Part shown: piece by piece, positions 2,343-51,227 of the stretch | Position numbering within the stretch: the first letter of the stretch is position 1 | Layout of the letters: each line of letters opens with the position of its first letter | Assembly: GCA_039630355.1 (NCBI GenBank) | Contig: JBCNVF010000014.1 | Span: 1-62,293 of the forward strand | DNA from: Brevinematia bacterium | GTDB taxonomy: Bacteria; Spirochaetota; Brevinematia; DTOW01 | Length of the DNA: 62,293 nt | Reading direction: 5' to 3' | Translations under genes and position numbers: made by a program | Notes under the pieces: model-generated | What the model saw: the letters and a program-made list of their open reading frames with translations, nothing else | The model's database searches: none | Told to the model about the DNA's origin: nothing

Positions 2343-2553
2343 TTATAGGTCTTAATTTCTATTGGATGAGCTGATAAAGTTCTCAGTTTCCTACCTATTT
2401 ACCATACTGGTTCTGGGTAATATTTTCCAATTTGGAATGTTATCTTAGGTTGAGTTTTCTATTGATGAAAATGACGAAGAATTTTGAGAAAATATTCTCT
2501 CATACTCTTGAGAGAGGAAGACTACACCCAATTGTGAATTTTAGACTTTATTA
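2343..2553 (+). mobile_element. Decayed full-length copy (E) of the ~210-bp TIR element
   Basis: Left end TTAATTTCTATTGGATGAG resembles CCAATTTCCATTAGATGAG of copy B; right end GAAGACTACACCCAATTGTGAATTTTAGACTTTATTA resembles copies C and D; length 211 bp. Confidence 0.55.
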
Positions 2554-12161: not shown

Positions 12162-12956
12162 CTATCTTTTTAGGTTAATAGCGGTTGCCAGCATACTATC
12201 GGTGGTTTGAATGCTTTTTGAGTTAAATTCGTAAGCTCTCTGGGCTACTATCATGTCCACAAATTCTCTTACTGCGTTGACGTTTGACATTTCAAGAAAG
12301 CCTTGGTGCAATTTACCAAAACCATCTTTTGAAGGAATCCCTTCGTAAGCTGGACCTGAGGCTGGGGTTTCTTTAAATAAATTCTCGCCTATACTGTCAA
12401 GTCCTGCAGGGTTAGTGAATCTGTAAAGTTTTATTTGTCCAACTTCTATCTCTTCTTCTGAGTCCAAAACTTTTGCGTATACCATTCCGTTGTCTAGTAT
12501 CTTTATGCTCTCAAATCTAAATCCTTCTGGGAAGATTATTTGTGGTTCAAATCTGTAACCATTTGAAGTCAATAATTCGCCATTTGAGTCAATCTTCAGT
12601 GAACCATCACGAGTGTAGGCATAGCTACCGTCTGGCATAACAACTCTGAAATACCCCTCTCCGGCGATTGCTATATCCAGCTTATTTCCCGTATTCTGGA
12701 GTGCTCCTTGGGTGTGAAACTTAAATGTAGCAGAAGGTTTTACTCCTAAACCAACTTGGATTGGTACAGGATATATAGTAAGTTCCGAAGAGGGGGTTCC
12801 TGCCATCCTCTGAGTCTGATACAGTAGTTCCTCAAACTCAGCTCTGCTTCTTTTAAACCCTGTTGTGTTTATGTTTGCAAGATTGTTGGCTATAACATCA
12901 ATATTAAACTGTCCTCCTATCATCCCAGAAGCTCCAGTCCATAGAGATCTAACCAT
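12162..12956 (-). CDS. flgG: Flagellar basal-body distal rod protein FlgG
   Basis: MVRSLWTGASGM...ANNLANINTTGFK, YTRDGSL, LEMSNVN..MIVAQRAYE; GGAGGAG SD precedes the ATG at 12956. Confidence 0.95.
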   Translation of the reverse strand: MVRSLWTGASGMIGGQFNIDVIANNLANINTTGFKRSRAEFEELLYQTQRMAGTPSSELTIYPVPIQVGLGVKPSATFKFHTQGALQNTGNKLDIAIAGEGYFRVVMPDGSYAYTRDGSLKIDSNGELLTSNGYRFEPQIIFPEGFRFESIKILDNGMVYAKVLDSEEEIEVGQIKLYRFTNPAGLDSIGENLFKETPASGPAYEGIPSKDGFGKLHQGFLEMSNVNAVREFVDMIVAQRAYEFNSKSIQTTDSMLATAINLKR

Positions 12957-12985
12957 CCTACTCCTCCAATTTATACCTAAGCTAA

Positions 12986-13013
12986 TTTTCGTAACAAAGC
13001 TAGCTTTCTCAAG
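12986..13013 (-). promoter_or_regulatory. Weak sigma28-like promoter candidate for flgG (CTTGA-N15-TACGAAAA)
   Basis: -10-like CGAAAA 29 nt before the ATG; the spacer contains the perfect palindrome AAAGCTAGCTTT. Confidence 0.3.
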
Positions 13014-13117
13014 TAAAAACCAAAATTTCCGCTTGGAAAAAGAATATAAAGGTGAAGGTTTCATTCAGTATCTTGGCTTTAGGGTTACTTTAGTTAATCT
13101 CCTAGCTAAGCTTGTTT

Positions 13118-13331
13118 CAATAAATTCCAATTTCCACTGGATGACTAACCAAGACTCCAAGCTTTTTACTTACTCACTTTGATTCCAGATGGTGCTCGTT
13201 TGATCTCAGAATTTCATTTCACACTAAGTCTCTTAGGTGTTTTTGGGAGAGGTGTTCACTCAATCCTGATAGTGACTGCGAAAAAAATAAAAGAAAAACT
13301 ATGCCTAACTGTTAAATTTTAGAATTTATTG
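13118..13331 (+). mobile_element. MITE-like element copy A (214 bp) with TIRs and perfect 10-bp target duplication
   Basis: Left CAATAAATTCCAA versus reverse complement of right end CAATAAATTCTAA (12/13); flanked by AAGCTTGTTT at 13108-13117 and 13332-13341. Confidence 0.9.
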
Positions 13332-13386
13332 AAGCTTGTTTATTTTTAGTTGATGTTAAAAGAGAAATAGATATAATATTCTGGTT

Positions 13387-14961
13387 ATGGAAGTACTGAT
13401 TGTGATGGGTATTGTGTATCTGTGGTTTATACTCGCAGGTTACTATTCCATTAGAATTATCAGAAAGCTGAAAGGTTTCCAAAATATTCTTCTAAACTTT
13501 ATTAGATACCTTTTTGCTGTTTCGGTGATAACAATACCTATGACTTTGATACCAATAGAGTTTGTCAAATACCTTCTAGTTATCTACTTCTCTTTCACAA
13601 CTCTTCTTGCGAACGTTTTGCAAAAAAATAAGTTAGTTGCGGTAGATCTTTTAGCTACAATATCCTTCACATTAGTAGGAATTGCAGAAACTATCTTGAA
13701 AATGAATGTATTCTTGCCTTTAGGAATTGTGTATCTGGTTCTCTATACTGTCTACTATGCCTCTTTAAGGTCAGATGTTATAGTTGAGATAAAGAAGGCT
13801 GTTATTACTATTTCCGTTGTCATATCTACGGGTATAGGAGTGGTTAGTACATTAAGTTTGCTCAATATAGCGTATCTTCAGGTGATAGTTGGGTTGCCGA
13901 TTATATTGTCCTCAGTAGCTTCATATTTAGTTGTGCTTCTTAGCTACACTAGAACTATAGATACTCTAAGCAATGATGTTACTGCAGTTGTGCTTGAGAA
14001 AAGTAATAAAATCAAAGATTTTACATCTAGAATGGAAGAAATCGTCTTAAAGTTGAAGGATTGTTATTCGTCATTAGAGCTTAGTGTAGACAAAATAGAA
14101 AAGAACAAAGTGCAGGAATTTGTAAAAGAGTTAATATCAAGTGTTATGGAATTAAGTCCTATAGTTGAGTTCATTCAGAGGACAATAAAGGATTATCAGA
14201 ACAGAGTAGAAAAAATGGTAAAAGATTTACCGGCTCTTTCTGAAAATTTTGCTAGAGATTTTTCCGAGCTTATGAATACAAGACAAGCTCTTTCGGAAAC
14301 GAATACAAACGTTATGTCTTTAGTCAAAGTTGCACTTGATAGTGAGAGAGCAGTTATGAATGCGTCTAAGTCAATAAGAGAACTCAGAGCTACTGCTAGA
14401 AACCTTACTGATAACCTGAAGGTATTTGGTGAGATATCTGAACATTCTTCAATACTTTCCATAAACATAAGTGTAGAAGCTTCAAAACTTGGTAGTAAGG
14501 GTGAGGTGTTTTCTAAATTATCTCAACAGGCTAAGAAGTTTTCTGACCTGATATACTCAAATGTTGAAACGACAAAACGGTTAATAACCGAGCTTGATTC
14601 TAAAGCGGAGTTTAGCGAACATATGGTGAAAACTCTAGTCATGTCTTTTGTAGAGATGGAAACTGGTTTAAAGAATATATCAAAGGGTATTTCTATGATT
14701 CTTGAAAAGTTTGAAAATCTCTCAACCACAGCGGAGAACATTAGAAAGGGGATAGAGGAAATAGATAAGATGATGTTTATGATTCCAGAGTTTTCAATGG
14801 AGATAAGTAAAAGGGGGGAGGATATTCTTCTAAATTACAAGAAACTGAGAAAGTACTCTGACGATATACTGGTTGCTAGTAATTCGGTGGAAAACTCCGT
14901 AAAATCCATAGTTGAAAGTATAAAATCAACAATGGTGTTTGTAGAGAATTTGACGAAGTGA
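13387..14961 (+). CDS. Multi-TM methyl-accepting chemotaxis-like protein with degenerate signalling tip
   Basis: About six N-terminal TM segments, then a long coiled coil with SILSINISVEASKLGSKGEVF (MCP hairpin-like). Confidence 0.65.
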   Translation: MEVLIVMGIVYLWFILAGYYSIRIIRKLKGFQNILLNFIRYLFAVSVITIPMTLIPIEFVKYLLVIYFSFTTLLANVLQKNKLVAVDLLATISFTLVGIAETILKMNVFLPLGIVYLVLYTVYYASLRSDVIVEIKKAVITISVVISTGIGVVSTLSLLNIAYLQVIVGLPIILSSVASYLVVLLSYTRTIDTLSNDVTAVVLEKSNKIKDFTSRMEEIVLKLKDCYSSLELSVDKIEKNKVQEFVKELISSVMELSPIVEFIQRTIKDYQNRVEKMVKDLPALSENFARDFSELMNTRQALSETNTNVMSLVKVALDSERAVMNASKSIRELRATARNLTDNLKVFGEISEHSSILSINISVEASKLGSKGEVFSKLSQQAKKFSDLIYSNVETTKRLITELDSKAEFSEHMVKTLVMSFVEMETGLKNISKGISMILEKFENLSTTAENIRKGIEEIDKMMFMIPEFSMEISKRGEDILLNYKKLRKYSDDILVASNSVENSVKSIVESIKSTMVFVENLTK

Positions 14962-18729: not shown

Positions 18730-18820
18730 CAATAACCTCCAGTGTTTATTTAGTCGCAATAGGACTTCAAGAAAAGTAAGAGAAAAACTATGCCTAATTG
18801 TTAAGTTTTGGAATTTATTG
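18730..18820 (+). mobile_element. Internally deleted copy (G, 91 bp) of the TIR element
   Basis: Last 39 nt match copy A at 36/39 (all three mismatches are transitions); left end CAATAACCTCCAG. Confidence 0.75.
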
Positions 18821-20893: not shown

Positions 20894-21043
20894 CGTAGAA
20901 TTAGAGTTTGAAGCTGGAAGGTTTTTCTCTTGCATCCTTTTTGGAACTAGTTGAACGATTTCTCAAAGAATGCCTAGGAGGTCTAGTGCGTAGAGATGTT
21001 CGTTAGAGAGTATTACTGTATTCAATAGAAATTAAGTGTATGG
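20894..21043 (-). mobile_element. Decayed, shortened copy (H) of the TIR element
   Basis: TCTCTTGCA...GGAACTAG...ATGCCTAGGAGGTCTAGTG parallels copy C; CAATAGAAATTAAG (21023-21036) is the exact reverse complement of 2351-2364. Confidence 0.5.
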
Positions 21044-29013: not shown

Positions 29014-30444
29014 ATGAATTTAAGCTTATTGGAGAGAGTTAGTGAGTCTGAGTGGGTTTACAGAAAAAGGGGAAACATGAATGCTGATGTAAGATTTTTT
29101 TGTTCAAGGCAGATCTTGGAGTCAATGGATGAGGCTGTGCTTAGTCAAGCTACTAATGTAGCGTGTCTTCCGGGAATTGTTGGTGATGTTATTATTTTGC
29201 CTGACTCTCACTGGGGGTATGGCTTTCCTATAGGATCGGTTGCGGGATTTGACGAGAGTGGTGTTTTTAGTGTAGGAGGAGTAGGTTTTGACATAAACTG
29301 TGGTGTTAGAACTATAAAGACAAACCTTAGGTATGAGAGTCTTACGAGAAGGGATATAGAGGAGTTAGCCAAGAGGCTTTTTGAGAATATACCTGCCGGG
29401 CTTGGCAGGGATGGTGAGATAAAACTTCCGAGGAAAGAGGTTGTTAAGGTTCTTACGGAGGGGGTAAAGTGGTGTCTTGAGCATGGTTATGCTGAGGAGG
29501 AGGATGTTGAGAATACTGAGGAAAATGGAACAGTTGAAGGTGCTATTCCAGAATATGTCAGTGATGAAGCAATTGAGAGGGAAAAGGGTCAATTAGGAAC
29601 TCTAGGTTCTGGAAATCACTACTTGGAGGTTCAGGTGGTTGATGAGATATACAATAGAAGAATAGGTGAAATTTTTGGGTTGTTTAGGGGGCAAGTTGTT
29701 GTGACTATTCACTGTGGTTCCAGAGGCCTTGGACATCAGATAAATACGGATTTCATAAAGACATTTTCTTCGGCTGTTGAGAAATACAAGATTCCTATCA
29801 AGGAGAAGGAATTAGTTTGTGCTCCGATAGATTCAAAAGAGGGGAAAATGTATTTCGGTGCAGCAAAATGTGCGATAAATTATGCCTTTGCTAATAGACA
29901 GGTATTGACCTATCTCGTGAGACAGACTTTTAAGAAAATGTTTAAGGATGTATCCATGCCTCTTCTTTATGACATAGGACACAACACTGTAAAGGAAGAA
30001 ATACATACCACTCCTGATGGTAAGAGTATCAAAGTATACGTTCACAGAAAGGGAAGCACGAGGGGCTTTGGTCCAAGCACGATAGGGATACCTGAAAAAT
30101 ACATTAGTGTAGGACAACCAGTGATAGTTGGTGGATCTATGGGTTCCTCCTCCTATATTCTTGTGGGGACAACAAGTGCTATGCTCAAAACCTTTGGTTC
30201 AACTGTGCATGGTGCAGGTAGATCTCTCTCAAGAAATCAGGCTAAAAAGACTTTTCCTTATGAGAAAATTATGAAGCAACTTGAAAGTAAAGGGATAATA
30301 GTAATGTCTGCGTCAAAAGCTGGTATTTCAGAAGAAGCTCCCCAGGCTTATAAGGACATTGATGAGGTTGTAGAGTCAGTTAGTTATTCGGGATTGTCAG
30401 CAAAGGTAGCAAAGCTAAGACCTATAATAAGTGTGAAGGGTTAG
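29014..30444 (+). CDS. rtcB: RNA ligase RtcB
   Basis: PDSHWGYGFPIG, DINCG, GTLGSGNHYLE, HCGSRG, HRKG, GSMG, HGAGR, EEAPQAYK. Confidence 0.96.
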   Translation: MNLSLLERVSESEWVYRKRGNMNADVRFFCSRQILESMDEAVLSQATNVACLPGIVGDVIILPDSHWGYGFPIGSVAGFDESGVFSVGGVGFDINCGVRTIKTNLRYESLTRRDIEELAKRLFENIPAGLGRDGEIKLPRKEVVKVLTEGVKWCLEHGYAEEEDVENTEENGTVEGAIPEYVSDEAIEREKGQLGTLGSGNHYLEVQVVDEIYNRRIGEIFGLFRGQVVVTIHCGSRGLGHQINTDFIKTFSSAVEKYKIPIKEKELVCAPIDSKEGKMYFGAAKCAINYAFANRQVLTYLVRQTFKKMFKDVSMPLLYDIGHNTVKEEIHTTPDGKSIKVYVHRKGSTRGFGPSTIGIPEKYISVGQPVIVGGSMGSSSYILVGTTSAMLKTFGSTVHGAGRSLSRNQAKKTFPYEKIMKQLESKGIIVMSASKAGISEEAPQAYKDIDEVVESVSYSGLSAKVAKLRPIISVKG

Positions 30445-30776
30445 GATTTATCTTCTTCTCTCACAAGAAGAGATGCTACAATCTCTTCTCCTATCTTTTC
30501 GGATACTTTTTCTATAGCTTTTTCACTCTTGTATTCGCCAGACTCTATAAATCTTCTGCCTCTCTCAACTGCGGATTCTCTTATCTCAGGAATGTTTTTA
30601 ATAGTTGATAGTGCTATTTCTTCTGCTTGCTTTTTCTGAAGAATTTGTTTTGCGTCCTCGGAGATTGAAACTTCGTCTTTTCCTATGTTGTTTAGGTTGG
30701 TTCTGACTTTCTCGGGTTTATCGGAAGGTTTGCTGGGTTTTATTGGTTCTGGACCACCGATTCCTCTTACAACCAT
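30441..30776 (-). CDS. flgM: Anti-sigma28 factor FlgM
   Basis: DEVSIS..AK...PEIRE..VE...IESGEY pattern; preceded by a sigma28-like promoter; stop overlaps the rtcB stop. Confidence 0.8.
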   Translation of the reverse strand: MVVRGIGGPEPIKPSKPSDKPEKVRTNLNNIGKDEVSISEDAKQILQKKQAEEIALSTIKNIPEIRESAVERGRRFIESGEYKSEKAIEKVSEKIGEEIVASLLVREEDKS

Positions 30777-30828: not shown

Positions 30829-30927
30829 TTTCATTCAACAAATCACTCTCCTATACACCTAGACTCTACAATTGCTTTAAGCTCCTTAAAGAGAGTTAAA
30901 ACTTTTTTCATTCAACTTTCATTCAAC
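30829..30927. repeat. Three exact copies of the 11-mer TTTCATTCAAC in phase
   Basis: Copies at 30829-30839, 30906-30916 and 30917-30927 (offsets 77 and 11 bp). Confidence 0.75.
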
Positions 30928-31123
30928 ATCAAACTACCTTTGTGTCTTTTAAATCCCTCAAAAGGGAGCTAAAACCCGTTCAAATTGAAAAATACTTTGG
31001 TATTCACTCCTACCTCATAACTCCAGCTCTTTTTTGAATTATAAATGATCTTAATGTCAAGATGAAGGTATTTTTTCCGGAACCTCTAGTAATGCATTTT
31101 TTCGCACTAAAATATGTTGGTAA

Positions 31124-34037: not shown

Positions 34038-34073
34038 GTATTCAAGGGGTTTCCACTAAAGATGCTCCGGAAT

Positions 34074-34275
34074 AATAAATTCCAATTTCCATTAGATGAG
34101 TAGATAAGATTCAACTTTTTGTTTACCCACCTCCTTTGTTTCTAGACAGTGTTTATCAGTTGCAAATTCACTTCATACCAAGCCTCCTATTAGGAAGGGT
34201 GTTTACACAGTCCTGATAGGGATGAAAAGAGTAAAAGAAAAACTGTGCCTAATTGCTAAATTTTGGAGTTTATTG
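34074..34275 (+). mobile_element. MITE-like element copy B (202 bp)
   Basis: AATAAATTCCAATTTCCA identical to copy A; right end AAATTTTGGAGTTTATTG; flanks GCTCCGGAAT / GTTCCAGAAT (8/10). Confidence 0.88.
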
Positions 34276-34390
34276 GTTCCAGAATTATTGAAAAGGATAT
34301 TGCTAACAACAGCTTCTAGTCAATGTATAGAGTGTAAACTAAACAAGAGTAAGACTGGTTTTAATCCCTAGGTGTAGGTTTGGCTACTTC

Positions 34391-35621: not shown

Positions 35622-35834
35622 CAATAAGGTTTAAAATTCACAGCTAGGTGTGGTTTTTCCTTCTTTCTCTTGCAGTTTCCTGTCGGGGACTAGGTAAGTT
35701 TTCTTCCTAGTAAGCATCTAAGAAGCTTGGTGTGAAGTTAAGTTTCATAACTGACGAACGCTATCTAGAACCGAAAGAAGTAAGCAGAAGTTTGGAATCC
35801 TGATTGTTCACTTGGTAGAAATTGGAATTTGTTG
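35622..35834 (-). mobile_element. MITE-like element copy C (213 bp, inverted)
   Basis: Ends CAATAAGGTTTAAAATT...AAATTGGAATTTGTTG; interior collinear with A, B and D; no target duplication seen. Confidence 0.85.
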
Positions 35835-37490: not shown

Positions 37491-38447
37491 ATGGAGAACA
37501 TAAAACCGCTTAGTTTTGAGATGCCTATAGTTGAGATGGAGAAAAAGATAGAAGAGATGAAACAAGTTCTTGGGCTGAATGATGATTCACCCGAGATAAG
37601 GAATTTACACAAGCAGTTGGAGGATATAAAGAATAAGATTTACTCTAACCTTTCTGAGTGGCAGATTGTTGAGATTTCTAGGCATCCGAATAGGCCAACT
37701 TTTGTTGACTACCTTAGTGCAATATTTACTGATTTTATAGAGCTTGCTGGAGATAGATATTTTGGCGATGATAAGGCGATAATTGCTGGGTTTGGCAAGC
37801 TTGATAACATTTCTGTTTGTATAGTTGGTCAGGAGAAAGGCAAGTCAGTTGAAGAGAAGATAAGGAGAAATTTCGGTATGCCTCATCCTGAGGGTTATAG
37901 GAAGGCCATCAGGGTTATGAAGCTTGCTGAGAGGTTTAGAATACCAGTGATAACCTTTATAGACACTGCTGGTGCTTACCCTGGTGTTGGAGCGGAAGAA
38001 AGAGGACAAGGAGAAGCTATTGCTAGAAACCTTATGGAGATATCTGGGCTTAAAACCCCTATAATATCGGTGGTCATAGGAGAGGGAGGAAGTGGTGGAG
38101 CTTTAGCTATTGGTGTTGCGGATAGAATCTATATGCTTGAGTATGCTACATATTCCGTAATATCTCCCGAAGGGTGTGCTTCTATCCTCTGGAAGGATGC
38201 ATCTAAGGCGCCTGAGGCTGCAAAAGCGTTAAAACTCACCGCAAGATGGTGCAAAGAGTTTGGTGTAGTGGATAAGATAATAAAAGAACCGTTAGGGGGT
38301 GCTCATAGAAATCCTGATTTAGTTTTTAGTAATTTGAAAGCAGAGCTAATAAAGGATATTGGGTATCTGCTCAAACTTTCAAATGAACAGCTTTTGAAAA
38401 TGAGATATGCGAAGTTTAGGAACATTGGAGCTTATGAGGTAAAGTGA
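37491..38447 (+). CDS. accA: Acetyl-CoA carboxylase carboxyltransferase alpha subunit
   Basis: RHPNRP, RNFGMPHPEGYRKA, IDTAGAYPG, GEGGSGGALA. Confidence 0.97.
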   Translation: MENIKPLSFEMPIVEMEKKIEEMKQVLGLNDDSPEIRNLHKQLEDIKNKIYSNLSEWQIVEISRHPNRPTFVDYLSAIFTDFIELAGDRYFGDDKAIIAGFGKLDNISVCIVGQEKGKSVEEKIRRNFGMPHPEGYRKAIRVMKLAERFRIPVITFIDTAGAYPGVGAEERGQGEAIARNLMEISGLKTPIISVVIGEGGSGGALAIGVADRIYMLEYATYSVISPEGCASILWKDASKAPEAAKALKLTARWCKEFGVVDKIIKEPLGGAHRNPDLVFSNLKAELIKDIGYLLKLSNEQLLKMRYAKFRNIGAYEVK

Positions 38448-39668: not shown

Positions 39669-39888
39669 CTATGAAGTCTAAGATTTACAGTTGGGTGCAG
39701 TTTCTTCTCCTTATTTTCCTCGCAGTCCCTGGCGGGACTGATGAACTTCTCTTTTGGCAAGCACCTAGCCTAGTATGAAATGAGGTTTTGTTACCGAAGA
39801 ACACTGCCTAGAACCAAAGGGGATAAATAGAAGTGAGCAAAAATTTTAGAATCTTGTTTACTCTCCTAATGAAAATTGGAATTTATTG
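39669..39888 (-). mobile_element. MITE-like element copy D (220 bp, inverted), overlapping the murD 3' end
   Basis: AAAATTGGAATTTATTG end at 39888; interior collinear with A-C; perfect hairpin CAGTCCC-TGGC-GGGACTG at 39723-39740. Confidence 0.85.
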
Positions 39889-41245
39889 CTAACTTTCTGA
39901 CTATGCTTTTAAAACATTCACCTCTGTGTTCATAGTTTTTGAACATGTCAAAGCTTGCATAAGCTGGTGAGAATAGGACGATATCTCCTTTATCAGCAAT
40001 TTCTCTTGCTTTTGTTACTGCGTCTTCTAGATTTTCTGCTTTGTAGAATTTGTTGTATCCTTGGGTTTTGAGTTTTTCAACTATAAGTTCTCTAGTGCTT
40101 CCGATTGCGATAACATACTTAACTTTTTTCTTTATTATGGGAACAGCTTCGTCAAAGTCCATTCCCTTGTCAAGTCCTCCTACGATCAGGACTATTGGGT
40201 TATCTAGACTTCTTATTGCACTAACCATTGCGTTTATAGTTGTGGACTTAGAGTCGTTTATGTATTTTGCTCCATCTATTTCTGTAACAAATTCCATCCT
40301 GTGTGGTAATGGTTCAAAAGAGTAAATGCTTTCCTCAATTATCTCTTTGGGTAGTTCCATTTCCATTCCTATTGCAACTGCTATCATGATATTCTCAATA
40401 TTGTGTTTGCCTATCAGTTTAACTCTAGTTGTATTGATAACTTTTTCTTCTTCAAACCATATATAGCCGTCTCTGAGGTATACCTCTTTGCTACTTAGTT
40501 TTCCGTTTCTACCTTCATAGGCCGAGAAAAAGATTTTTCTGCACCTTAGGTTATTTACTTGCGGTAAGTTCAGAAGGGATTTGTTTAGAACGCTTATTTC
40601 TTTCTCCTCAGAGTTCTTGAACAAGGAAAACTTTGACGCAATGTAATCTTCAAACGAGGGGTATCTATCAAGGTGATCTTTTGCAATGTTAGTTATAGCT
40701 CCTATTTTTGGGGTGAACTCTCTTGTGGTATCTATTTGAAAACTACTTATCTCTAGAACGAGAGTTTCAATATCCTCTTCAAAGAGTGAGAATATTGGTA
40801 TGCCTACATTACCGCCAATGAATGTTTTAGGGAGGTAGGAACTTAGGACTTTGTGTGTTATATTGGTTGTTGTTGTTTTACCGTCCGTTCCTGTTATAGC
40901 GATGTATCTGATATTGGGTTTTAGCCTGTAAAAAAGTTCAATATCTCCTATGACTTCAATGTCTTTTTCCAAAGCTTTAGCTATAATTGGATTAGTCAGA
41001 GGCACACCTGGGCTTGAGATAATCATCTCTACATTATCAAGCTCTGCATCCTCTGTGCCTAGTAGGTCAATGACTTCTCCTTTTGCTTTTTCTTTGACCT
41101 TGGATAGAAGTTCTTCTTTTTCGGGGTCTCTGACTTTGTCGGAGATTAAAACGTTGCAACCCTTTTCGGCTAGGAACTTGGCAGTATGAAAGCCTGTTCT
41201 ATGAGTGAATCCTAATACTAAGAAGTTCTTTTTACCTAGTATCAT
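39866..41245 (-). CDS. murD: UDP-N-acetylmuramoyl-L-alanine--D-glutamate ligase
   Basis: SSPGVP, AITGTDGKTTT, LEISSFQ, DHLDRY, NDSKST, FSPAYASFDMFKNYEHRG. Confidence 0.95.
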   Translation of the reverse strand: MILGKKNFLVLGFTHRTGFHTAKFLAEKGCNVLISDKVRDPEKEELLSKVKEKAKGEVIDLLGTEDAELDNVEMIISSPGVPLTNPIIAKALEKDIEVIGDIELFYRLKPNIRYIAITGTDGKTTTTNITHKVLSSYLPKTFIGGNVGIPIFSLFEEDIETLVLEISSFQIDTTREFTPKIGAITNIAKDHLDRYPSFEDYIASKFSLFKNSEEKEISVLNKSLLNLPQVNNLRCRKIFFSAYEGRNGKLSSKEVYLRDGYIWFEEEKVINTTRVKLIGKHNIENIMIAVAIGMEMELPKEIIEESIYSFEPLPHRMEFVTEIDGAKYINDSKSTTINAMVSAIRSLDNPIVLIVGGLDKGMDFDEAVPIIKKKVKYVIAIGSTRELIVEKLKTQGYNKFYKAENLEDAVTKAREIADKGDIVLFSPAYASFDMFKNYEHRGECFKSIVRKLAINSNFH

Positions 41246-51043: not shown

Positions 51044-51227
51044 CAATAGATTCTAATTTCCGAGTGTCACTTTACATTTAACTTTCGGCTTTCATTAAGA
51101 GAACAATTTTAACCAGTCCTAACTAGGGTTACGAGAGAAATAGGAAAAAACTGCACCTAGTTCAGATAGGGACTACGATGGAAACAAAATGAAAACCATA
51201 CTTGATCATCAAATTTTGGATTTATTA
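51044..51227 (+). mobile_element. Rearranged copy (I) of the TIR element
   Basis: Left CAATAGATTCTAATTTCC; right AAATTTTGGATTTATTA; the hairpin-to-AAAAACT segment is present twice in tandem. Confidence 0.7.

What the first reader, a model, noticed from the sequence alone, without database searches (positions are those of the whole stretch)
13108..13341. Copy A has a perfect 10-bp target-site duplication
Seen: AAGCTTGTTT immediately precedes the left TIR (13108-13117) and immediately follows the right TIR (13332-13341); the TIRs match at 12/13. Established: long 8-12 bp duplications with ends beginning CA are typical of several DDE families, for example IS4 subgroups. Inference: this is direct evidence of transposition, probably the youngest insertion here, and it sits in the divergent flgG / MCP-like promoter region. 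The IS4 assignment is only a candidate.
Basis: partly seen in the sequence, partly recalled or inferred. Interest (0 to 1): 0.7.

Follow-up and report, generated by a model that had tools for sequence, protein, structure and literature searches.

The report
Small transposon copy with target duplication
A 214-bp non-coding mobile element (a MITE) lies between the flgG and chemoreceptor genes of an uncultured hot-spring spirochaete, flanked by a perfect 10-bp duplication that marks a real transposition event; this is an ordinary kind of element, seen here in a little-studied lineage.

Summary
AAGCTTGTTT flanks a 214-bp element (13118-13331), and the element's 13-bp terminal inverted repeats match at 12/13. 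No 10/10 flank match occurred in 70,000 random site pairs.

The element is non-coding, shows no RNA-structure signal and has no Rfam match. It belongs to a family of seven diverged, intergenic copies in this 62-kb window, which together make up about 21% of the intergenic DNA. The termini are conserved (81-87%) and the interiors are not (about 60-67%). Other copies in the source hot-spring metagenome lose similarity exactly at 13117/13118 and 13331/13332.

The best reading is a MITE inserted by a DDE transposase acting in trans. Its ends (CAATA...TTT) and the 10-bp duplication fit the published IS4 and IS4Sa subgroup signatures and none of the other eight IS4-related signatures.

Two things are still missing. 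No transposase is encoded in the window, and no empty site was found: both available runs carry the filled site, and the nearest genomes (92-94% FlgG identity) are not syntenic. Only one other copy (C) keeps a recognisable duplication, at 7/9.

Copy A is probably the youngest copy in the window, but it need not be recent. This is a new member of a known kind, of low to moderate interest.

The parts
13108..13117 (.). Left copy of the target-site duplication, AAGCTTGTTT
   Evidence: Read directly. No 10/10 match in 70,000 random site pairs.
13118..13331 (+). Copy A of the MITE-like element: 214 bp, non-coding, ends 5'-CA...TG-3'
   Evidence: Stop codons in all six frames. No RNA-structure signal. 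No Rfam match. Other copies in the metagenome lose similarity at 13117/13118 and 13331/13332.
13118..13130 (+). Left terminal inverted repeat, CAATAAATTCCAA
   Evidence: Fits the IS4 and IS4Sa subgroup end signatures.
13319..13331 (-). Right terminal inverted repeat; the reverse complement is CAATAAATTCTAA, a 12/13 match to the left repeat
13332..13341 (.). Right copy of the target-site duplication, AAGCTTGTTT
12162..12956 (-). flgG (flagellar distal rod protein, 264 aa), to the left of the insertion
   Evidence: Pfam Flg_bb_rod, LlgE_F_G_D1 and Flg_bbr_C. Residues 1-264 align at 92-94% to FlgG of Brevinematia MAGs.
13387..14961 (+). Methyl-accepting chemotaxis protein-like gene (524 aa), to the right of the insertion
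   Evidence: Pfam MCPsignal. Full-length homologues of 46-58% identity are named MCP in Brevinematia MAGs.
13350..13377 (+). Sigma-70-like promoter match, TTGATG-16-TATAAT, 9 bp beyond the right duplication and not interrupted by the insertion
   Evidence: This is a consensus match only.
12985..13012 (-). Weaker promoter-like match on the flgG side, also outside the element
34073..34275 (+). Copy C (75% identical to A). It is flanked by GCTCCGGAA (34064-34072) and GTTCCAGAA (34276-34284), which looks like a decayed 9-10-bp duplication
   Evidence: The 7/9 match in strict register has p=0.0024 for that length and 0.015 over lengths 8-12.
35622..35834 (-). Copy D (65% identical to A); no recognisable duplication
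39669..39888 (-). Copy E (66% identical to A). Its left end supplies the last six codons and the stop codon of the murD-like gene. Any duplication is ambiguous (7/10 only if the last two element bases are counted as flank)
2345..2552 (+). Copy G, strongly diverged (about 55% identical to A), with an eroded left terminus
51044..51226 (+). Copy F, strongly diverged and rearranged, with an internal partial duplication
18743..18820 (+). Copy B, a solo right end of 78 bp (86% identical to the right end of A)

Best explanation
Copy A is a miniature inverted-repeat transposable element (MITE). It is a 214-bp non-coding derivative of an insertion sequence that keeps only the ends a transposase recognises. 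A DDE transposase encoded elsewhere in the genome (or now lost) would have bound the CAATAAATTCC... termini, excised the element, and joined its two 3' ends to the target strands at positions staggered by 10 bp. Repair of the two gaps then duplicated AAGCTTGTTT. The insertion landed between the divergent flgG and MCP-like promoters without cutting either. The most likely source is an IS4-family element of the IS4 or IS4Sa subgroup. Shown here: the repeat anatomy, the family, the exact ends, the non-coding nature and the gene context. Inferred: the transposase, its family and the cut-and-paste chemistry.
For: The 10/10 duplication sits in exact register with a 12/13 inverted repeat, and no such match occurred in 70,000 random pairs. 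There are seven copies in 62 kb, all intergenic although only 10.3% of the window is intergenic; together they make up 21% of the intergenic DNA. The termini are 87% (left) and 81% (right) conserved between copies, against about 59-67% for most interior segments, as expected if only transposase-binding ends are under selection. Further copies in two metagenome runs stop matching exactly at the CA and TG termini. Integrity of the inverted repeats and of the duplication falls together: A has 12/13 and 10/10, C has 11/13 and 7/9, and the other copies have about 8/13 or worse and no duplication. This looks like an age series of insertions. There is no conserved ORF, no fold signal (z +1.0 and -0.2), only weak covariation and no Rfam match. 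The end sequence and the duplication length fit only the IS4 and IS4Sa rows of the published IS4-family table. Removing copy E plus one 10-bp flank restores a murD reading frame that ends two codons later.
Against: No empty site was observed. Both runs that contain the locus carry the filled site and show no joints. The nearest genomes are only 92-94% identical in FlgG and have a different gene upstream of flgG. None of about 48 window ORFs scanned is a transposase. No longer element with the same ends was found in any fetched locus, and a metagenome scan with the left-end pattern gave only chance matches. The copies are 45-75% identical to each other, so there is no sign of a recent burst. 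Only one of the other copies shows a duplication, and it is only weakly significant. The right end matches the IS4 signature at AATR but is 2 nt out of register at the WTW positions.
Confidence: 0.85

Rival explanations
1. It is a MITE, but mobilised by a DDE family other than IS4. Candidates are ISAs1 (8-10-bp duplications, CAGGG ends), an IS5/IS903-type element, or an IS256/Mutator-like element with 8-10-bp duplications, or a family not yet described.
For: No transposase was seen, so the family assignment rests on 20 nt of end sequence and one clean duplication. The end signature has a chance probability of roughly 1/500 in this AT-rich DNA, and it was chosen after looking at ten signatures. 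The right end matches it only partly.
Against: Within the IS4-related table, only the IS4 and IS4Sa rows fit both the ends and the duplication length. From my own recollection of ISfinder, and not tested here, the termini of the other families that make 8-10-bp duplications differ: ISAs1 has CAGGG, IS903 has GG, IS256 has GG/GA.
Confidence: 0.35
2. It is a host intergenic repeat kept for a function, for example a protein-binding or regulatory module comparable to REP/BIME or ERIC. On this view it spread mainly by recombination, and the 10-bp repeat at copy A is incidental.
For: All copies are intergenic. Five lie in divergent promoter regions. Several short internal blocks are moderately conserved. 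One relic exists in a related species.
Against: A 10/10 repeat in exact register with the inverted repeats is not expected without transposition. Conservation is concentrated at the termini. Orientation and distance to neighbouring genes show no pattern. Copies are truncated (B), rearranged (F), or run into a gene end (E). About 148 kb from related genomes holds only one relic, which argues against a conserved host function.
Confidence: 0.07
3. It is a small structured RNA gene family, for example a transposon-associated guide RNA or another regulatory RNA.
For: The size (about 200 nt), the multiple copies and the intergenic location would be compatible.
Against: Folding energy is no better than for shuffled sequence on either strand (z +1.04 and -0.16). 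The consensus structures are weak (-4 and -11 kcal/mol), and most pairing comes from the inverted repeats. There is no Rfam match even at E<=1. No promoter-like or terminator-like site lies inside the element.
Confidence: 0.04
4. The direct repeat is a coincidence or an assembly artefact next to a decayed repeat.
For: Only copy A shows a perfect duplication.
Against: No match in 70,000 random pairs. Both junctions are reproduced by independent contigs from two runs.
Confidence: 0.01

Closest known systems
IS4-family insertion sequences, IS4 and IS4Sa subgroups (De Palmenaer et al. 2008, PMC2266710)
   Same: The ends are of the 5'-CA/NA type. The left end CAATAAATTCCAATTT matches -AATR--------WTW---- (IS4 subgroup) and CA------T (IS4Sa). 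The first base is relaxed in the IS4 subgroup, and copy C indeed starts with T. The duplication of about one helical turn (10 bp) lies within 10-13 bp (IS4) and 8-10 bp (IS4Sa).
   Different: The element is 214 bp with no transposase gene, against 1.15-1.75 kb for those insertion sequences. No DDE/YREK protein was seen anywhere in the window. The right end carries two extra A's, so its WTW block is out of register.
Bacterial MITEs such as Correia elements (Neisseria), RUP (Streptococcus pneumoniae) and the IS231-mobilised MIC231 cassettes of Bacillus cereus (named from my own knowledge, not tested here)
   Same: Short, non-coding, bounded by inverted repeats, flanked by target duplications, present in many intergenic copies, sometimes overlapping gene ends or promoters, and dependent on a transposase supplied in trans. 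MIC231 is a precedent for non-autonomous elements moved by an IS4-family enzyme.
   Different: There is no sequence similarity to anything in the collections searched. The duplication is 10 bp, whereas Correia and RUP duplicate TA. The host is an uncultured thermophilic Brevinematia spirochaete.
ISAs1-family elements (from my own recollection of ISfinder: 8-10-bp duplications, CAGGG termini)
   Same: The duplication length range includes 10 bp, and the ends begin with CA.
   Different: The termini here are CAATA, not CAGGG. No ISAs1-type transposase was seen. This was not tested beyond the terminal bases.

Membership tests
MITE (non-autonomous TIR transposon) | Short (under about 600 bp) and non-coding | tested here: met
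   214 bp. Stop codons in all six frames, and no ORF shared between copies.
MITE (non-autonomous TIR transposon) | Terminal inverted repeats | tested here: met
   13 bp, 12/13 match, at the exact ends.
MITE (non-autonomous TIR transposon) | Target-site duplication of a family-typical length | tested here: met
   Copy A 10/10, with no match in 70,000 random pairs. Copy C 7/9 (p about 0.002-0.015). Other copies have none or an ambiguous one. The length across the family therefore rests on two copies.
MITE (non-autonomous TIR transposon) | Multiple dispersed copies | tested here: met
   Seven copies in 62 kb. Further copies on other contigs of runs X1 and X2. One relic in related MAGs.
MITE (non-autonomous TIR transposon) | Presence/absence polymorphism (an empty site with a single target copy) | tested here: inconclusive
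   Only two runs contain the locus. Both carry the filled site and show no joints. Contigs cannot show rare alleles. No close or syntenic sister genome is available.
MITE (non-autonomous TIR transposon) | A cognate autonomous element with the same termini | tested here: inconclusive
   None in the window (Pfam scans), in the fetched loci, or in the metagenome collection. The rest of the genome is not available.
IS4 family (IS4 / IS4Sa subgroups) | Terminal signature: -AATR--------WTW---- (IS4) or CA------T----------- (IS4Sa) | tested here: met
   The left ends of A, C, E and F fit the IS4 signature. The ends of A fit the IS4Sa signature. The right ends fit AATR, but WTW is shifted by 2 nt. None of the other eight signatures fits.
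IS4 family (IS4 / IS4Sa subgroups) | Direct repeat of about one helical turn (10-13 bp or 8-10 bp) | tested here: met
   10 bp at copy A and 9-10 bp at copy C.
IS4 family (IS4 / IS4Sa subgroups) | Single-ORF DDE transposase with the Y(2)R(3)E(6)K motif | not testable with these tools
   No transposase gene is linked to the element in any available sequence.
Structured non-coding RNA family | Conserved secondary structure with covariation, or a match to a curated family | tested here: not met
   z-scores +1.04 and -0.16. Weak RNAalifold consensus. No Rfam match.

The most novel reading that the evidence does not exclude
The family may be more than selfish DNA. It fills about a fifth of the intergenic DNA of this thermophilic Brevinematia genome, lies mostly in divergent promoter regions, and keeps several internal blocks. 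It could have been co-opted as a regulatory or architectural module. Alternatively, it could still be mobile through a transposase type not yet recognised in this phylum.
Probability: 0.1. Interest if true: 0.45.

Novelty: new member of a known kind. Interest (0 to 1): 0.25.

Why it matters
The finding documents a real transposition event and an abundant MITE family (about one copy per 9 kb) in an uncultured hot-spring Brevinematia spirochaete. As far as the searches here show, no mobile elements have been described in that lineage. In practice these copies explain the unusually long intergenic regions, the fragmentation of short-read assemblies at these sites, and at least one altered gene end (murD). 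They should be masked or annotated when promoters or small RNAs are predicted in this genome. The finding does not change what is known about how transposons work.

Tried and rejected
1. Empty site in sister genomes. FlgG-based loci from 185,579 species genomes gave five close Brevinematia loci, but the region upstream of flgG is not syntenic. The nearest MCP homologue is only 58% identical. The FlgG cluster members are all 92-94% identical, except the window's own sequence. In GCA_025061835.1 and GCA_026414895.1, flgG follows dnaG.

2. Empty site in reads. Only two runs contain the locus, both as low-depth Logan contigs, and they show no joints at copies A, C, D or E.

3. More copies or an autonomous element in public metagenomes. 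The left-end pattern gave 61 loci, all chance matches, and the two viral hits were also chance. One inverted-repeat pair 1.8 kb apart on a giant-virus contig encloses no transposase.

4. Exact-protein look-ups of the window's own FlgG and MCP returned nothing.

5. Similarity to known plasmid-borne insertion sequences: none.

6. RNA gene hypothesis: rejected.

7. Outward-facing promoter or terminator inside the element: none found.

8. Duplications at copies D, F and G: none. At copy E the result is ambiguous.

9. Supplementary files of the IS4 paper hold no end sequences to compare. The FEMS review on insertion sequences is not in the library.

Full report
**Observation.** AAGCTTGTTT occupies 13108-13117 and 13332-13341. 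Between the two copies lies a 214-bp element (13118-13331). Its left end is CAATAAATTCCAA, and the reverse complement of its right end is CAATAAATTCTAA, a 12/13 match. The direct repeat is exactly 10 bp and is in register with the inverted repeats. In random site pairs 214 bp apart, none of 20,000 and none of 50,000 gave 10/10. The decamer is otherwise rare, with three copies in the window against 0.41 expected. Independent Logan contigs from two hot-spring metagenome runs reproduce the left junction (X1 12874-13287, X2 13016-13167) and the right junction (X1 13320-13798). The structure is therefore not an assembly artefact.

**Context.** The window is a chromosomal contig of an uncultured Brevinematia/Brevinematales spirochaete from a hot spring. 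Its FlgG is 92-94% identical to FlgG of MAGs carrying that taxon name, and the runs that contain the locus are labelled hot springs metagenome. flgG is 12162-12956 on the minus strand; its true start is at 12956, preceded by GGAGGAG, and all 264 residues align to relatives. The MCP-like gene is 13387-14961 on the plus strand. The 430-bp gap between them would be 206 bp without the insertion. A good sigma-70-like match (TTGATG-16-TATAAT, 13350-13377) lies 9 bp beyond the right duplication. A weaker match for flgG lies at 13012-12985. Both are outside the element. About 48 ORFs of the window were scanned against Pfam. Those with matches are housekeeping genes, a few have no match, and none is a transposase.

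**The family.** BLAST and profile searches find seven copies in 62 kb:
- G: 2345-2552
- A: 13118-13331
- B: 18743-18820, a solo right end
- C: 34073-34275
- D: 35622-35834, minus strand
- E: 39669-39888, minus strand
- F: 51044-51226, rearranged

A possible fragment lies at 20920-20990. All copies are intergenic, although only 10.3% of the window is intergenic, and together they make up 21% of that intergenic DNA. Pairwise identity is 65-75% among A, C, D and E, and 45-60% for pairs involving G or F. Conservation is uneven. The first 20 nt are 87% identical between copies and the segment at positions 187-206 near the right end is 81% identical, against about 59-67% for most interior segments. 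Contigs carrying other copies in runs X1 and X2 stop matching copy A exactly at 13117/13118 and 13331/13332, which confirms the CA...TG ends independently. No ORF is shared between copies. Folding energy is no better than for shuffled sequence on either strand (z +1.04 and -0.16). Consensus structures are weak, and there is no Rfam match.

**Duplications at other copies.** In strict register, copy C has GCTCCGGAA / GTTCCAGAA, a 7/9 match. This becomes 8/10 if the atypical first T of the element is counted as flank. The probability is 0.0024 for that length and 0.015 over lengths 8-12. Copy E gives 7/10 only if its last two bases are treated as flank. Copies D, F and G show nothing. Integrity of the inverted repeats falls in the same order (A 12/13, C 11/13, the others about 8/13 or worse). 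This looks like an age series with A the youngest. However, twenty unchanged bases only bound its age loosely, and both strain variants in X1 and X2 carry the insertion.

**Copy E and murD.** Copy E illustrates the consequences of insertion. Its left end encodes the last six residues and the stop codon of the murD-like gene (...VRKLA|INSNFH*). Removing the element plus one 10-bp flank restores ...VRKLVS*.

**Mechanism.** The anatomy is that of a MITE moved in trans by a DDE transposase that makes cuts staggered by 10 bp in the target. The family of that enzyme can only be inferred. In the published table of IS4-related families (PMC2266710), the IS4 subgroup has ends -AATR--------WTW---- with 10-13-bp repeats. 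The IS4Sa subgroup has CA------T----------- with 8-10-bp repeats. The left end CAATAAATTCCAATTTCCAC fits both, and it fits none of the other eight signatures (IS231 and ISH8 CAT, IS10 CT, IS50, ISPepr1, IS701, ISH3, IS1634). The paper also notes a relaxed first base in the IS4 subgroup, and copy C begins with T. The right ends fit AATR but have two extra A's before the TTT. I estimate the chance of the left-end match in this AT-rich DNA at about 1/500, before correcting for ten signatures tried. This is supportive, not decisive.

**What could not be shown.** No empty site was found. Relatives are too distant and not syntenic upstream of flgG. The MCP gene has no homologue above 58% identity. 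The two runs show only the filled site, and they show no joints at copies C, D or E either. No autonomous element was found in the window, in about 148 kb of related genomes, or in the JGI metagenome collection, where 61 pattern hits were all chance. Related MAGs hold one diverged relic (L119/L121 5791-5875, nhmmer E=0.003). The family therefore either predates the split from those species or was exchanged with them, and it is far more abundant in the window's lineage.

**Verdict.** Copy A is a genuine transposon insertion with a 10-bp target-site duplication, and probably a MITE derived from the IS4 or IS4Sa subgroup. It is a new member of a known kind, in a poorly studied host, and of low to moderate interest.

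Noticed in passing
window 30876-30904 and 30948-30976 (intergenic, between flgM 30441-30776 and the 31435-33981 gene): Two CRISPR-repeat-like units lie about 73 bp apart (...AAAGAGAGTTAAAAC and ...AAAGGGAGCTAAAAC). The second unit has a summed contig depth of about 8,800x in X1 and 1,300x in X2, made up of many 31-nt unitigs. One contig repeats it after a 37-nt spacer, which indicates a large CRISPR array with this repeat somewhere in the community. The window appears to hold a vestigial array end, with no cas genes nearby.
   Followed up: partly
window 39866-39888 (minus strand): The murD-like gene (39866-41245) ends inside copy E of the element. Its last six codons and the stop codon (INSNFH*) come from the element's left end. 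Removing the element and one 10-bp flank would restore ...VRKLVS*.
   Followed up: yes
L119 5791-5875 and L121 5791-5875 (minus strand; GCA_025061835.1 and GCA_026414895.1): A diverged relic of the same repeat family (ATTTCTACTGGATGA, TTCTAGACGG and CATTCAGCACTAAAG blocks) lies in an intergenic region of related Brevinematales MAGs. It is the only copy found in about 148 kb of related genomes.
   Followed up: partly
window 51089-51226: Copy F carries an internal partial duplication: two overlapping matches to family profile positions of about 122-191 and 141-207. It lacks the middle of the element.
   Followed up: no
window 13127-13178 versus contigs of X1 (1,411 bp, depth 61x) and X2 (7,560 bp, depth 11x): A shorter, diverged version of the element (about 81% identical over 52 bp, then jumping to the right-end region) sits on contigs roughly ten times deeper than this genome. 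This suggests that the family also occurs in a more abundant organism in the same spring.
   Followed up: no
window 37619-38019 (accA-like gene): A contig depth spike (68x in X1, 287x in X2) occurs over a conserved part of the acetyl-CoA carboxylase carboxyltransferase alpha-subunit gene. It is probably cross-matching from an abundant relative.
   Followed up: no
window 13377-13387: The -10 hexamer of the MCP promoter-like site ends only 9 nt before the ATG that homologues support as the start codon. The MCP mRNA may therefore be leaderless or nearly so.
   Followed up: no
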